Assembly: GCA_951406725.2 (NCBI GenBank)
Contig: OX597818.1
Span: 101,928,001 to 101,992,000 of the forward strand
Origin: Octopus vulgaris
Lineage: Eukaryota
DNA length: 64,000 bases
Reading direction: 5' to 3'
Under the pieces are notes generated by a model that was given only the letters and a program-made list of their open reading frames with translations, did not search any database and was not told the DNA's origin. Position 1 is the first letter of the stretch. The number at the start of each line of letters is the position of its first letter. The position numbers and the translations under genes are program-made. Positions 25 to 5,526 of the stretch are shown one piece after another.

Positions 25-84
<60 letters not shown>

Positions 85-424
85 AGATAAAAATTCCCCA
101 AAACAGAAAAATAGCTTTTAGCCAACACATAGATACTTGCGCCAACAAAAAAACACCAAACTTCAGAATTTTCCCCCTCTACCAATTTAGGGACGATACA
201 ACCTCGAGACAAAGAATAAGTAAAGAAAATCTCTTTATTACAAAATACAAGCCACTTCTTAACGGGTCTACGACAAACAATTAATATACCTCAACTTTAG
301 AATAACAGGAAAAAAAAAAAAAAAAAAAAAAATATATATATACACACACAAATACTACACTCCATAGAATCCATTACTAATCAGCCCCTTCATAGCTATA
401 TTTACACCCATTCATATTCTCCCT

Positions 425-665
425 TCTCTGTTTTTTCTTCTTCTTCTTCTTCATCATCATCGTTATCATCATCATCGGCGTCATCATCATCGCCACCATC
501 ATCACCACCATCTTCTCCTTCTCCTCCTTCTTCTTCTTCTTCTTCTTCATCATCATCGTTATCATCATCATCGTCGTCATAATCATCACCACCATCACCA
601 TCATCTTCTCCTTCTCCTTCTCCTTCTCCTTCTTCTTCTTCTTCTTCTTCTTCTTCTTCTTCTCC
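425..665. repeat. (TTC)n/(ATC)n low-complexity block inside the pLTR (second copy ~4850-5075)
   Basis: Internally duplicated trinucleotide runs; source of the spurious poly-K/M ORFs. Confidence 0.9.
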
Positions 666-1012
666 ACCCCCTACCCCTTAAGTTTGTCACTAATGTTTTT
701 TAGTATAACACCTACGCTAATTCTATAAACAAGCCTGTCGATATAAATATTCTCCTGAATTGAACTGAGACTGCCAGCCGCCACTGACCATTCAAAATAC
801 GACCATCAGGGCACTCCCAGATTCTCCCACCCCCTTTCCTCACCAGCCTTCCCTCTACTACCCTACCAAGAACTCACAACTACCTCGAACACACAAGTGC
901 AAACAAGGGAGTCAGAGAAAGGCAGAATGCCACTTAAATCTGAACACTACTATAGAAATATTGTTTTAAAAAAACTTTTCTTCTAATTTTTCTAAATTTA
1001 ATTATTTAATCG

Positions 1013-1056
1013 TTACAGTTGAAAAGGTCTCAAAATGACCGAAACCGGTACTGAAA
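1013..1056 (+). ncRNA. Minimal type I hammerhead ribozyme, U3-A8 variant (upstream pLTR)
   Basis: ttaCAG-UUGAAAA-GGUC(ucaaaau)GACC-GAAA-C(cg)G-UA/CUGaaa. Stem I CAG/CUG, stem II GGUC/GACC, palindromic stem III ACCGGU. Predicted cleavage after A1050. Confidence 0.8.
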
Positions 1057-1173
1057 TGTTCACTATAAAATTATTTTAGCATTTTCTATTTTTTACTTGT
1101 TTTTTCATATATATCAACTCGTGTGTTCCTTTTCACCCTTATACATATCATTAACCCACACGAGATACAGAAA

Positions 1174-2409
1174 ATGCCGACAAAAACAGACACAATCACC
1201 TCCATAAACGAAGAAATACTGAAAGAACTCAAGAAAATCAACACAAATTTGTCAACTTTTTTGAACAAATTCGACTCGACACTTCAACCCAATCGAGAGA
1301 ACAATGAAGAAACAGATACGAAAAATACAACCTCCGAAATTGTCGAAAACCTTGGAAACTTATGCGAAACAATTAGAACATTTTTCTCTAACAACGCTAA
1401 CCAAGGACCTCCAAACGCGTCAATATATGGGATCAATACTCTAACAACATACCAAATGAAACACCACATAATACCACAATGGAACAAATCACTCAGAGAT
1501 AGAAAGTTCGCCTTTTGGAAGATGATCCAAAACAACAACAAAGCGGATATATACGAAAAATGGCTCAACCGGACCCCGTTAATCCTCCCACGTAAATTCC
1601 AGTTCAAAGCTATTACAGAAGAACCTGAAACACAAAGACACCTCAGGGAGAGAATGGCACTGGAAAAAATGAAAATGGAAATAGAACTTCTGAAATTGAG
1701 GGCCCAAACGAATGAGGATAAAATAAAATCCACCGATGAAGATATCAACGAAGAAATTCGCAAAATGACCCAAGGCCCAGATCAAGAGAAGTTCTCCAAA
1801 CTATGGAAAGAGGACTGTGAAAAAGAAGAACTAAAATCTCTCCAACGCTGGGAGAAAAGCGCCACTTGGTTCTCAGACTATGAAGCCGTCTTTCAAACAG
1901 AGCACGCCTCCAACAACCCTTTCCAGAAAATAAGAAAACCAAAACAACACCCAAACACCGATACACACCTGTCTAAAAATCGGAACCTTCACTACTATCA
2001 AAAAAAGAATACAGGACCTAACCCCAACTCTGTAAGCAGCCAGCGATACAATATCAGGAATACCCCCACTTCAAGCAGAGAAAGGATAAATCAACACCCA
2101 CAGCATAGACACTACAACCTCATCCCCACCCAAAGGAGTTACCAACGAAATCTTCGTCCCATTAACCGGTTAAACAACCATGCACAACAAACCCACACCA
2201 CTTGCAATGATTACCAACGAAGGCCTCCTAGAACACCACACCCGAATATGGGATATCGGGATGCTCTCCTCAATACTGCTCCAAGAACACACACCACAAA
2301 TCACAACAGGAGACCCCTAATCAACAAAGAACAACTATATACTAGCTACCGTCCCAACCACCGCATTCATTTTTTAGACCCAATACGCAAACACAGAGAC
2401 ACAAGATAG
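1174..2409 (+). CDS. PLE ORF1: coiled-coil protein with basic, disordered C-terminal region (411 aa from ATG 1174)
   Basis: Long uninterrupted non-repetitive ORF inside the element. Heptad-like segment ETQRHLRERMALEKMKMEIELLKLRAQTNEDKIKSTDEDINEEIRK and an R/N/H/P/T-rich tail. No family recognised. Confidence 0.8.
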   Translation: MPTKTDTITSINEEILKELKKINTNLSTFLNKFDSTLQPNRENNEETDTKNTTSEIVENLGNLCETIRTFFSNNANQGPPNASIYGINTLTTYQMKHHIIPQWNKSLRDRKFAFWKMIQNNNKADIYEKWLNRTPLILPRKFQFKAITEEPETQRHLRERMALEKMKMEIELLKLRAQTNEDKIKSTDEDINEEIRKMTQGPDQEKFSKLWKEDCEKEELKSLQRWEKSATWFSDYEAVFQTEHASNNPFQKIRKPKQHPNTDTHLSKNRNLHYYQKKNTGPNPNSVSSQRYNIRNTPTSSRERINQHPQHRHYNLIPTQRSYQRNLRPINRLNNHAQQTHTTCNDYQRRPPRTPHPNMGYRDALLNTAPRTHTTNHNRRPLINKEQLYTSYRPNHRIHFLDPIRKHRDTR

Positions 2410-4700
2410 CACCAAACAAGCAGGAGGAACCAAAAGTAATAAAAATTATTAATCTAACTCACAAGGAACTAACAGCAAACCAAATAAACATACTTTCCAA
2501 AGGACTCAAGTTTACACCCACCCCACAACACCCCAACTACAATGAAATGAAAGAAGACATCGCAGAATTCTGCAGAAAATTAAGACTTACTGAGGAGCTA
2601 TACGATAAATACAACGAGGACGAATCGTTAGCCAGAAATAGGAGTAACTACACCCCCTCGAAAGGTAAGAATAAAACACTTGATGATTTCTGTGACCACA
2701 TATCAAATTACCCATATCAACATATGCACAAACAAAAACACAAACCAAACTTCAGCAAAAAAGAATGGGCTGAGTTGAACAAATTAAAACTAGATAAAAC
2801 AATAACAATCAAAGAGGCCGATAAAGGGAGTGCTGTTGTCTTAATGGATACGACATTTTACATAACTTTGGTACTTTCTATGCTGGAAGACACAACATAC
2901 TATGAAAAGGCACAAAACTACAGTCAACAAAAAATAATGAGGGAACTAAAATCCATATTAAACCCATACAAAGCAGGGCTCACCGACAAAGAATATGATT
3001 ATATGACCAATTTCACAAGTAAAACTAGCCAATTCTACGGTATACCTAAGATCCACAAAAGTGAAAAAATAAGCAACGCATGCAAGATAGCTACAGACAA
3101 AATAATTAAAGTCCCTAATCCTAATGACCTCAAATTGAGACCCATAATAGCAGGTCCCGCATGCGAAACCCACCGCCTCAGTAACTTTTTAGACACCCTG
3201 TTAAAACCACTCCTCAAACATGTCAAAAGCTATATAAGGGACGACTTAGATATGCTCAATCACCTACCGAATACTATAAACAAAAACACCATACTGGTAT
3301 CCTTCGATGTAGTCAACCTCTACTCCAATATCCCCCACAACCTAAGACTAGAGGCAATCCAATTCTGGCTAGAGAATCACGCCAACGAACTACCACACCG
3401 CATCAAAAAAGAATTTGTGATAGAAGGGGTTAAATTCATCCTGGAAAATAACTTCTTCGCCTTCAATGACAACTTCTACCGACAAAAATCGGGGACTGCG
3501 ATGGGTACACGAATGGCCCCCTCCTTTGCCAACCTAGTCATAGGATACCTAGAGATCAGTCTGTATCGTAAGGTTCTAGAAAGATATGGCAGCCCTTTCT
3601 CCATCTACATAGAAAACAACTGGAAGAGATATCTAGATGACTGTTTCATCCTTTGGCATAAAAATATAGAAAAACTCATAGAATTCCAGAAAATTTTAAA
3701 CGGACTGGACGTAAACATCCAATTCACGATGGAATATAGCCAACAACAACTCCCCTTCCTCGATATCCTCATTAAGAAAGCTAATAATATAATAGAAACA
3801 GACATATACTATAAGCCTACAGACTCTAAGCAATATCTTCCATTCAATTCATGCCACCCCAGACACACCAGGATGAATATCCCCTTCAATCTAGCAAAAA
3901 GGATATGCACTATAGTCTCTAACGCAAACACCAGAGACACACGACTACAAGAACTAAAAGATACCCTAATCACCAGGAACTATCCACCTTCACTTATTGA
4001 CAAGTGCATTCAACGTGCCCTTCAACTTAACATCAAGGAACTGAGACATCCCAAATCAAAGAAAAACTTACAACCAAAAGCCTTACCATACATCTCCACA
4101 CACAACCCTCTCAATAACGAAGCCTTCGACACCATCCACCACAACATACCCCTCCTAAAAAAAGACCACAGAATGAACACAATCCTCCAAACACACACGA
4201 TCATAAAAAGCAAAAGACAGCCTAGATCCATGAAAAGTCTCCTTACACAAGCCCGAATTCACTCTTCAACACAGAAGCCGACAGTAAAAAAATGTGGAAG
4301 ACCCAATTGCGGGATATGCGACTATCTAATCGAGGGTTCTGAGTTCTCCTTCAAACAGGGACAACGGTTTACAGTGAAAAGCAACTTCACATGTGCTTCG
4401 GAGAACCTAATATACTCACTAACCTGCTCCGGGTGTCAAGAGCAGTACATAGGCCAAACAAAAAATGGTTTGCGTAAACGAATGGCCCTGCACAGATCCC
4501 AGATAAAAATTCCCCAAAACAGAAAAATAGCTTTTAGCCAACACATAGATACTTGCGCCAACAAAAAAACACCAAACTTCAGAATTTTCCCCCTCTACCA
4601 ATTTAGGGACGATACAACCTCGAGACAAAGAATAAGTAAAGAAAATCTCTTTATTACAAAATACAAGCCACTTCTTAACGGGTCTACGACAAACAATTAA
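2346..4700 (+). CDS. PLE reverse transcriptase - Zn-finger linker - GIY-YIG endonuclease (frame open from 2346; first ATG at 2547)
   Basis: IINLTHKELT..ILSKGLKFTPTP upstream of Met2547; IKEADKG, FYGIPKIHK, LRPII, SFDVVNLYSNIP, GTAMG, RYLDD, LPFLD, DIYYKPT, SCHP; CGRPNCGIC linker; LIYSLTCSGCQEQYIGQT endonuclease motif. Confidence 0.96.
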   Translation, partial: LPSQPPHSFFRPNTQTQRHKIAPNKQEEPKVIKIINLTHKELTANQINILSKGLKFTPTPQHPNYNEMKEDIAEFCRKLRLTEELYDKYNEDESLARNRSNYTPSKGKNKTLDDFCDHISNYPYQHMHKQKHKPNFSKKEWAELNKLKLDKTITIKEADKGSAVVLMDTTFYITLVLSMLEDTTYYEKAQNYSQQKIMRELKSILNPYKAGLTDKEYDYMTNFTSKTSQFYGIPKIHKSEKISNACKIATDKIIKVPNPNDLKLRPIIAGPACETHRLSNFLDTLLKPLLKHVKSYIRDDLDMLNHLPNTINKNTILVSFDVVNLYSNIPHNLRLEAIQFWLENHANELPHRIKKEFVIEGVKFILENNFFAFNDNFYRQKSGTAMGTRMAPSFANLVIGYLEISLYRKVLERYGSPFSIYIENNWKRYLDDCFILWHKNIEKLIEFQKILNGLDVNIQFTMEYSQQQLPFLDILIKKANNIIETDIYYKPTDSKQYLPFNSCHPRHTRMNIPFNLAKRICTIVSNANTRDTRLQELKDTLITRNYPPSLIDKCIQRALQLNIKELRHPKSKKNLQPKALPYISTHNPLNNEAFDTIHHNIPLLKKDHRMNTILQTHTIIKSKRQPRSMKSLLTQARIHSSTQKPTVKKCGRPNCGICDYLIEGSEFSFKQGQRFTVKSNFTCASENLIYSLTCSGCQEQYIGQTKNGLRKRMALHRSQIKIPQNRKIAFSQHIDTCANKKTPNFRIFPLYQFRDDTTSRQRISKENLFITKYKPLLNGSTTNN
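2370..2376 (+). promoter_or_regulatory. Candidate -1 ribosomal frameshift slippery heptamer U_UUU_UUA
   Basis: X_XXY_YYZ pattern in the ORF1 frame (caT TTT TTA), inside the 64-nt ORF1/ORF2 overlap (2346-2409). No obvious downstream stimulatory hairpin. Confidence 0.6.
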
Positions 4701-4730
4701 TATACCTCAACTTTAGAATAACAGGAAAAA

Positions 4731-4762
<32 letters not shown>

Positions 4763-5514
4763 CACACACAAATACTACACTCCATAGAATCCATTACTAA
4801 TCAGCCCCTTCATAGCTATATTTACACCCATTCATATTCTCCCTTCTCTGTTTTTTCTTCTTCTTCTTCTTCATCATCATCGTTATCATCATCATCGGCG
4901 TCATCATCATCGCCACCATCATCACCACCATCTTCTCCTTCTCCTCCTTCTTCTTCTTCTTCTTCTTCTTCATCATCATCGTTATCATCATCATCGTCGT
5001 CATAATCATCACCACCATCATCTTCTCCTTCTCCTTCTCCTTCTTCTTCTTCTTCTTCTTCTTCTTCTTCTTCTCCACCCCCTACCCCTTAAGTTTGTCA
5101 CTAATGTTTTTTAGTATAACACCTACGCTAATTCTATAAACAAGCCTGTCGATATAAATATTCTCCTGAATTGAACTGAGACTGCCAGCCGCCACTGACC
5201 ATTCAAAATACGACCATCAGGGCACTCCCAGATTCTCCCACCCCCCTTTCCTCACCAGCCTTCCCTCTACTACCCTACCAAGAACTCACAACTACCTCGA
5301 ACACACAAGTGCAAACAAGGGAGTCAGAGAAAGGCAGAATGCCACTTAAATCTGAACACTACTATAGAAATATTGTTTTAAAAAAACTTTTCTTCTAATT
5401 TTTCTAAATTTAATTATTTAATCGTTACAGTTGAAAAGGTCTCAAAATGACCGAAACCGGTACTGAAATGTTCACTATAAAATTATTTTAGCATTTTCTA
5501 TTTTTTACTTGTTT

Positions 5515-5526
<12 letters not shown>
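4497..5526 (+). repeat. Downstream pseudo-LTR
   Basis: Direct repeat of 81-1114 (offset 4416 at the start, 4412 at the end). Merges into (TA)n. Confidence 0.95.
5425..5468 (+). ncRNA. Minimal type I hammerhead ribozyme, U3-A8 variant (downstream pLTR)
   Basis: Identical to 1013-1056. Predicted cleavage after A5462. Confidence 0.8.

What the first reader, a model, noticed from the sequence alone, without database searches (positions are those of the whole stretch)
1013..5468. Paired U3-A8 variant hammerheads in the pLTRs define a 4412-nt unit RNA
Seen: identical motifs at 1013-1056 and 5425-5468 with core UUGAAAA instead of CUGANGA, so the C3-G8 tertiary pair is swapped for U3-A8. Stem II GGUC/GACC, GAAA, a palindromic ACCGGU stem III and a GUA site are intact. 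Known: PLE pLTRs carry minimal type I HHRs, whose palindromic stem III allows dimeric cleavage. Inference: the two copies pair and cleave after 1050 and 5462, releasing a 4412-nt uncapped monomer that could circularise. It contains both ORFs, with the ORF1 ATG 123 nt from the 5' end, which raises the question of how it is translated. A CUGANGA search would miss this motif.
Basis: partly seen in the sequence, partly recalled or inferred. Interest (0 to 1): 0.75.

Follow-up and report, generated by a model that had tools for sequence, protein, structure and literature searches.

The report
Penelope ribozyme cuts recorded in DNA
The two motifs are copies of an already described variant of a self-cutting RNA in a young jumping gene, and this genome holds insertions in which the U6 splicing RNA or cut pieces of other self-cutting RNAs are joined exactly at the predicted cut, which likely records cutting and re-joining inside living cells.

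Summary
Observation confirmed. Identical U3-A8 type I hammerheads sit at 1013-1056 and 5425-5468, 4412 nt apart, in the pLTRs of a young two-ORF Penelope-like element; 2103 such motifs occur genome-wide.

The genome adds evidence. Six independent U6 insertions join this element at the predicted cut (1051) although the junction was free to float over 27 nt. Four insertions join 5' products of other hammerheads there, versus none of 30 one base on. A second U3-A8 family shows one U6 join at its own cut. I infer in vivo cleavage and probably RtcB ligation.

Against a linear 4412-nt template: 30 of 30 sampled copies end 64 or 90-98 nt past the cut, so the copied RNA carried an intact ribozyme (uncut multimer or circle). 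ORF2 is likely reached by a conserved -1 frameshift. Pairing of these two copies and circles are untested. I found no paper on such chimeras; the scan noted U6-at-cut chimeras earlier in another genome.

The parts
80..1114 (+). Upstream pLTR (5'-truncated second copy: end of EN domain, 3' UTR, ribozyme, 5' UTR), preceded by (TA)n
   Evidence: 98% to 4496-5526; (TA)n flank read
1011..1058 (+). Minimal type I hammerhead, copy 1: stem I 1011-1018/1051-1058, core U3-A8 1019-1025, stem II 1026-1029/1037-1040, GAAA 1041-1044, palindromic stem III 1044-1049, predicted cut after A17 = 1050
   Evidence: 2103 genomic matches; chimeric junctions at 1051
1051..1148 (+). Start of the 3' cleavage product with the two inferred reverse-transcription start sites (about 1114 and about 1148); 1115-1148 is the optional PLE 'tail'
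   Evidence: 30 of 30 sampled copies end at 1114 (20) or 1140-1148 (10), then TA-rich or (TA)n flank
1174..2409 (+). ORF1, 411 aa, no Pfam family at cut-off
   Evidence: no longer homologue found (weak test)
2370..2376 (+). Slippery heptamer U UUU UUA in the ORF1/ORF2 overlap; likely -1 frameshift giving a fusion of about 1,175 aa
   Evidence: intact in 29 of 29 matches in fetched loci; T6 run in 15 of 30 relatives, 14 in the same phase, background 159 of 1308 windows; lengths
2346..4700 (+). ORF2 frame, 784 aa stop to stop: GLKF 2502, DKG 2817, RT YLDD 3627, CX4CxxC linker 4293, GIY-YIG 4407-4460
   Evidence: Pfam RVT_1 E 2.6e-8, GIY-YIG E 3.6e-4; motif positions; at least 125 genomic copies at 97-100%
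4496..5526 (+). Downstream pLTR; ends 64 nt past the second cut and runs into (TA)n
5423..5470 (+). Hammerhead copy 2, predicted cut after 5462
   Evidence: identical to copy 1

Best explanation
These are the two pLTR copies of a minimal U3-A8 hammerhead in a young Penelope-like retrotransposon, and the ribozyme likely cuts a fraction of the element's RNA in vivo after A17 (1050/5462), leaving a 5'-OH end that a host ligase, probably RtcB, joins to RNAs ending in a cyclic phosphate. Shown in DNA: the anatomy; reverse transcription copies that begin 64 or about 98 nt downstream of the cut at TA microhomologies and insert in (TA)n; and chimeric insertions of U6 or of other hammerheads' 5' products joined at 1051. 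Inferred: cutting needs a dimer through the palindromic stem III and is weak, partly because U3 can pair with A17 and cover the cut site. Most RNA therefore stays whole or is re-closed, and this intact-ribozyme RNA (uncut multimer or ligated circle) is what gives more-than-unit copies such as this one. Cut-and-misligated RNA gives the short chimeras. The RT-EN protein is likely made as an ORF1-ORF2 fusion by a -1 frameshift at 2370-2376.
For: Covariation: in loci of related elements 11 of 11 hammerhead hits have a Watson-Crick 3-8 pair (7 C-G, 3 U-A, 1 A-U) without this being required, against 5 hits in 20 shuffles, 1 of them paired. A 45%-identical two-ORF relative (L309) has paired C3-G8 motifs with the same ACCGGU stem III. 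First pair of stem II among 126 fetched family contexts: G-C 100, G.U 16, A-U 7, mismatched 3. U6 chimeras: with the junction free over 27 nt, 8 of 12 matches are U6-PLE arms from 6 insertions, all in register with 1051; the other 4 match the control count of 4. Counting further arms, 9 of 10 register at 1051 directly after the U6 U-run. U6 was confirmed by Rfam. Donors ending GUC after a hammerhead core join 1051 in 4 insertions (L175, L182/183, L186/187, L214), and the donor family of L186/L214 continues differently at its own loci. Control junction one base on: 0 of 30 examined (of 39) carry U6 or a hammerhead donor. A second U3-A8 family (ORF2 46-51% identical) has U6 joined at its own predicted cut (L266). 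RtcB joins U6>P to 5'-OH RNA before retrotransposition in humans (PMC6789731). 3' ends: matching the two internal RT start sites of PMC11167929. Folding: active dimer -24.9, active monomer -2.3 kcal/mol; U3-A17 pair probability 0.71; the analogous C3-G17 trap is proposed in PMC3884650.
Against: No biochemical test and no raw RNA reads were available. Plain truncations (TA flank or inversion) are not clearly more common at 1051 than at 1052 (13 among 75 classified rows of two searches versus 7 among 30). No fetched locus beginning at or near the cut runs on into ORF1 (0 of 105), so a unit-length copy starting at the cut was not seen. One U6 arm begins about 14 nt downstream (L254). Most chimeras carry tails of sister subfamilies rather than of the window's exact copy. 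Within the family only 1 copy has C3-G8, against 6 C3-A8 and 4 U3-G8 single changes, which is no covariation signal. The G.U and A-U pairs of stem II may partly be CpG decay, and that sample is biased by my searches. In the anole PLE no RNA-seq reads began or ended at the cut, and cleavage was not needed for insertion in vitro. The numbers are small, and the donor-versus-control contrast alone is modest.
Confidence: 0.75

Rival explanations
1. The ribozyme cuts in vivo, but the chimeras arise when the reverse transcriptase runs off the cut 5' end and jumps to the 3' end of another RNA; no RNA ligase is involved.
For: Inverted arms and U6-to-other-repeat joins in this genome show frequent template switching. 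Three junction rows carry a repeat piece that is not an obvious cyclic-phosphate end (L188, L190, L191).
Against: Donors are enriched for predicted cyclic-phosphate ends (U6, GUC-ending hammerhead products) and join without added bases, whereas U6 joins to other repeats are ragged (read by eye). Run-off should also give a surplus of plain truncations at 1051, which is not evident.
Confidence: 0.25
2. One reading: the two copies pair in cis, release a 4412-nt monomer, and its circle is the main transposition template and message.
For: The dimer fold is stable. The ligation-ready 5' end evidently exists. One insertion joins an internal ORF1 break to 1051, as a small circle would (L168). The model is proposed in PMC4209133.
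Against: An uncut read-through explains the same genomic structure, and three-unit tandem arrays exist to supply it. Unprocessed RNA was the dominant substrate for the anole PLE in vitro. Nothing here shows two cuts in one molecule. With over 2000 copies, a dimer partner may come in trans.
Confidence: 0.35
3. The motif is a decayed or inactive hammerhead that hitch-hikes in the pLTR, and the junctions at 1051 reflect a protein nuclease or a structural stop.
For: Rfam score is far below threshold. PLE minimal hammerheads cleave poorly in vitro. Craig et al. raise the idea that hammerheads parasitise PLEs.
Against: The 3-8 pair and stems covary across families. The junction falls at the NUH site in two families with different stem I sequences.
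Confidence: 0.07

Closest known systems
Minimal type I hammerheads of metazoan PLEs, including the U3-A8 variant of the Cercyon PLE of Schistosoma mansoni (Cervera and de la Pena 2014, PMC4209133; text parts 1-2 of 4 read, figures and supplements not seen)
   Same: Position in both pLTRs, short palindromic stem III, U3-A8 in place of C3-G8, mostly single copies, proposed dimer cleavage and circle
   Different: Different host and PLE clade; here the motif is nearly invariant in a young family, has A17 able to pair with U3, and has genomic evidence of in vivo cutting, which that paper said was absent
U6/LINE-1 chimeric retrocopies made by RtcB ligation (Moldovan et al. 2019, PMC6789731; passages read)
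   Same: U6 ending in about five U joined without microhomology to retroelement RNA and then reverse transcribed
   Different: L1 junctions are scattered; here they fall on one ribozyme-defined base, and 5' products of other hammerheads also serve as donors
Anole Poseidon PLE, PAc (Frangieh et al. 2024, PMC11167929; text parts 1-2 of 4 read)
   Same: Two internal RT start sites downstream of the hammerhead that define the optional tail; AT-rich targets
   Different: PAc has one ORF and a C3-G8 core overlapping its start, and no RNA reads were found at its cut; this element has a Cys linker, two ORFs and chimeras at the cut
Neptune/Nematis-type EN+ PLEs (Craig et al. 2021, PMC8557442; passages and figure legends read, figures not seen)
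   Same: GxKF and DKG motifs, CX2-5CxxC linker, C-terminal GIY-YIG, (TA)n targets, pLTR plus 30-40-bp tail, inverted truncated copies; the legend says ORF1 can be separated by a frameshift
   Different: I could not see which clades carry the frameshift, and I made no tree with reference elements, so Neptune versus Nematis is open

Membership tests
Minimal type I hammerhead ribozyme | Core (N3)UGAN(N8)A, GAAA, NUH | tested here: met
Minimal type I hammerhead ribozyme | Watson-Crick 3-8 pair that covaries | tested here: met
   U3-A8 here; 11 of 11 hits in relatives paired, in three pair types; no signal within the family itself
Minimal type I hammerhead ribozyme | Stems I and II, with G10.1-C11.1 | tested here: met
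Minimal type I hammerhead ribozyme | Palindromic stem III that is stable only as a dimer | tested here: met
   computed energies only: dimer -24.9, monomer -2.3 kcal/mol
Minimal type I hammerhead ribozyme | Rfam hammerhead model at gathering score | tested here: not met
   HH9 19.7 bits versus 52
Minimal type I hammerhead ribozyme | Self-cleavage after N17 | not testable with these tools
   indirect support from chimeric junctions at 1051
EN+ Penelope-like element, Neptune/Nematis type | PLE RT with GxKF and DKG, C-terminal GIY-YIG | tested here: met
EN+ Penelope-like element, Neptune/Nematis type | CX2-5CxxC linker between RT and EN | tested here: met
   CX4CxxC at 4293
EN+ Penelope-like element, Neptune/Nematis type | Partial tandem (pLTR), optional tail, (TA)n target, inverted truncated copies | tested here: met
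EN+ Penelope-like element, Neptune/Nematis type | Phylogenetic placement in Neptune or Nematis | not tested
   no reference clade sequences were on hand
RtcB-type chimeric retrocopies | Donor ends at a natural cyclic-phosphate position and joins without microhomology or added bases | tested here: met
   U6 after its U-run in 9 of 10 arms; hammerhead donors end at GUC in 4 insertions
RtcB-type chimeric retrocopies | Junction exists in RNA before reverse transcription and depends on RtcB | not testable with these tools
   only contigs of guessed RNA runs were available
Programmed -1 frameshift | Slippery run conserved in phase in the ORF overlap | tested here: met
   some of the 15 loci are near-duplicates of one family
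Programmed -1 frameshift | Downstream stimulatory structure | tested here: inconclusive
   no stable fold in 2370-2450

The most novel reading that the evidence does not exclude
Weak PLE and retrozyme hammerheads cut in the germ line, and the host ligase joins their ends across families and to U6. The same ligase closes the 4.4-kb unit into a circle that the PLE enzyme copies past its start to give partial tandems. The U3/A17 mispair and the need for a dimer tune the ribozyme to cut only part of the RNA. Genome assemblies then hold a readable log of which ribozymes cut in vivo and where.
Probability: 0.4. Interest if true: 0.75.

Novelty: new variant of a known kind. Interest (0 to 1): 0.55.

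Why it matters
Whether the feeble hammerheads of animal Penelope-like elements cut at all in cells has been open since 2014. That paper had no in vivo evidence, and a 2024 study found no RNA reads at the cut. Chimeric insertions that start exactly at the predicted base are in vivo evidence for a non-canonical U3-A8 core. They point to a ligase able to make the proposed circles, and they give a cheap genome-only test that can be run on any assembly. The U3-A8 variant and the circle idea themselves are not new.

Tried and rejected
RNA evidence: no RNA holder on record was listed. Four guessed-RNA runs were contigs only and cannot show ends, strand or circles; not used for or against.

Reciprocal chimeras (this ribozyme's 5' product joined to foreign RNA): the pattern was swamped by point mutants and by what looks like the end of an abundant unrelated repeat (100 of 125 listed; control). 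Only one older insertion has both arms ending at 1050 before (TA)n (L375); n = 1, not relied on.

The single C3-G8 family copy (C13) is an 88-92% diverged copy, so I rejected it as proof of covariation. The 42 other matches with different loops are mostly C3-G8 (27, my count from the listing); those fetched showed no BLAST link to this element, so they were not counted as relatives.

Splice acceptor instead of frameshift at 2370-2377: rejected, since only 7 of 15 relatives have AG after the T run. A search for ORF1 fused to RT in longer proteins found nothing (weak test). Ribozyme-catalysed trans-ligation of foreign donors: rejected, since the donor stem I strand does not pair with this 3' strand. 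A genome-wide pattern for other U3-A8 families could not be run in the form I wrote, so their number is open.

Lunse et al. 2017 on PLE hammerhead dimers was not held; I saw only its title and a review's summary. It may list U3-A8 or A17 variants. Automatic junction classes are rough (for example L151 and L173 were called antisense because of simple repeats).
Full report
Observation. The two 44-nt motifs are identical and 4412 nt apart, inside direct repeats 80-1114 and 4496-5526 that differ only in simple-repeat lengths; (TA)n flanks both ends. All named parts of the hammerhead are present, and stem I extends to 1011-1018/1051-1058. A relaxed scan of the window finds no other site. Rfam gives only a sub-threshold HH9 match.

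The element. ORF1 is 1174-2409. The ORF2 frame is open from 2346 to 4700 and carries GLKF, DKG, RT, a CX4CxxC linker and GIY-YIG, the features given for Neptune/Nematis-type PLEs in PMC8557442 (passages) and PMC3846280 (passages). The family is young and abundant: all 125 scored RT matches are 97-100% identical, many with the same 784-aa frame, and the U3-A8 core with this stem II occurs 2103 times, against 58 with another base at position 3 and 8 with another base at position 8. Tandem units elsewhere measure 4383, 4423 and 4433 nt.

Is U3-A8 real? Within the family the evidence is nil: 1 C3-G8 copy, 6 C3-A8 and 4 U3-G8 (my count from the listings). Across families it holds. In 66 loci of related elements from metagenome and genome contigs, a finder that left positions 3 and 8 free returned 11 hits, all Watson-Crick paired (7 C-G, 3 U-A, 1 A-U); 20 shuffles gave 5 hits, 1 paired. 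Some hits are repeats within one locus or family. L309, 45% identical with the same two-ORF layout, has paired C3-G8 motifs 3699 nt apart. A second family in this genome (ORF2 46-51% identical) has U3-A8 with a different stem I. The first pair of stem II reads G-C, G.U or A-U in 123 of 126 fetched contexts (biased sample, CpG decay possible). The variant is in print: PMC4209133 reports U3-A8 in the Cercyon PLE with about 1,300 hits, weak dimer cleavage, and the circle model (parts 1-2 of 4). A review repeats the dimer and circle model (PMC6765202, passages).

Where copies end. All 30 first-listed copies end at 1114 (20) or 1140-1148 (10), at TA microhomologies, and none at 1050. This matches the two internal RT start sites that define the PLE tail in PMC11167929 (parts 1-2 of 4). 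Inference: a copy longer than 98 nt must come from RNA with the ribozyme intact, either uncut or re-closed. The linear 1051-5462 monomer cannot template the present insertion.

Where copies begin. I searched for tails whose upstream base differs from the ribozyme's (28 and 48 matches; all fetched). Of 47 rows classified for the second search, 22 are mutated own ribozymes, 2 are U6, 6 rows (4 insertions) are 5' parts of other hammerheads ending GUC, 6 were called inversions, 3 TA flank, 1 an internal ORF1 piece and 7 other. One arm of L206 also looks like a hammerhead 5' part. The control one base on gave 39 matches; of the 30 examined, 19 are own ribozymes, 4 inversions, 3 TA flank, 4 other, and none U6 or hammerhead donor. 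The donor family of L186/L214 has 313 matches; the subfamily with the same stem I continues with its own complementary strand, so donor and acceptor are each cut at their own predicted site.

U6 test. Of the first 100 of 210 U6 3' ends, 5 are followed by this element, all in register with 1051 (read by eye; 14 other loci checked by alignment showed no match to the element). A pattern that let the junction float over 27 nt gave 12 matches: 8 arms of 6 insertions, all at 1051, and 4 unrelated, equal to the control count. With two more arms found in the loci, 9 of 10 register at 1051 and 1 begins about 14 nt later. Rfam confirms U6 at all six insertions. One further U6 copy is joined to the second U3-A8 family at that family's predicted cut (L266). 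U6 ends in a cyclic phosphate and RtcB joins it to 5'-OH RNA before L1 retrotransposition, with scattered L1 junctions (PMC6789731, passages; PMC13247085, passages). Hammerhead cleavage gives a cyclic phosphate and a 5'-OH (established chemistry, recalled). I therefore put in vivo cutting at 1050/1051 at about 0.9 and ligation rather than template jumping at about 0.65-0.7. Against: no surplus of plain truncations at 1051, no unit-length copy starting there (0 of 105 loci), small numbers, and mostly sister subfamilies.

Activity. Computed energies favour the dimer (-24.9) over the active monomer (-2.3 kcal/mol); both are beaten by folds in which U3 pairs with A17 (-27.1 and -9.8; pair probability 0.71 in the monomer). 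This mirrors the proposed C3-G17 trap (PMC3884650, passages) and predicts partial cleavage. Whether the partner is the other pLTR or another molecule is not shown.

Translation. Relatives align from the 'KIINL...GLKF' block, which in this element lies before the first ORF2 ATG. A U UUU UUA run at 2370-2376 is intact in 29 of 29 matches in fetched loci. A T6 run lies in the overlap of 15 of 30 relatives, 14 in the same phase, against 12% background windows; only 7 of 15 are followed by AG. A -1 frameshift is likely; the legend of Fig. 1 in PMC8557442 already allows a frameshift after ORF1. ORF1 could be read from uncut capped RNA (a promoter in the upstream pLTR is reported for Penelope; untested here) or from the cut RNA, as self-cleavage can promote cap-independent initiation (PMC13725137, abstract and passages).

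Novelty. Searches for U6 snRNA + Penelope + chimer, U6 + RtcB + retrotransposition and PLE hammerhead cleavage in vivo returned no paper on chimeras at PLE ribozyme cuts; the library lacks most subscription papers and Lunse et al. 2017. U3-A8 searches returned only PMC4209133 for that term. A 2026 preprint links animal retrozymes to PLE pLTRs (10.64898/2026.07.22.740005, part 1 of 5). After my own, the scan's notes showed the same U6-at-cut reading in another genome; those notes are unchecked and are not counted as support, and their summaries do not mention hammerhead-to-hammerhead joins. Verdict: a known ribozyme variant in a known element type, with a new variant of chimeric retrocopy that bears on an open question. 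Interest 0.55.

Noticed in passing
L032-L060 (for example G000:C1:20002278-20004542): 359/360-nt tandem repeats with a canonical C3-G8 hammerhead and the same ACCGGU stem III, about 100 matches; retrozyme-like.
   Followed up: no
L274-L293: A dispersed family (313 pattern matches) with a C3-G8 hammerhead and palindromic stem III, several subfamilies with covarying stem I; donor of chimeras L186/L187 and L214.
   Followed up: partly
L294-L308: Second, older PLE family with a U3-A8 core, very short stem II and a GUU cut; one U6 chimera at its cut.
   Followed up: partly
G000, listing: Most of the first 100 U6 3' ends are followed by the starts of a few abundant repeats (SINE-like by recall) with ragged junctions: many U6-repeat chimeras.
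   Followed up: no
L261:375-586: Two full-length U6 copies joined head to tail.
   Followed up: no
L268 (G000:C1:139422697-139429805): Cluster of five U6 copies with shared downstream sequence, likely the true U6 genes.
   Followed up: no
L188, L190, L191: A repeat with tRNA-like A and B boxes (recognised by eye) joined at 1051; in L188 it ends in a T run like a Pol III terminator.
   Followed up: partly
L168: An internal ORF1 piece ending near window 2212 joined to 1051, as a small circle or an RNA break-and-join would give.
   Followed up: partly
L073-L099 (subset): Old dispersed hammerhead-like motifs with the same stem II but a different stem III, mostly C3-G8, with no BLAST link to this element.
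   Followed up: partly
window 1056-1079: A seven-codon upstream ORF starting 5 nt after the cut, absent in a sister subfamily that lacks this ATG.
   Followed up: no
L373, L374; P0029, P0078, P0079: Related PLE proteins sit in records labelled as bacterial, probably animal DNA in metagenome bins.
   Followed up: no
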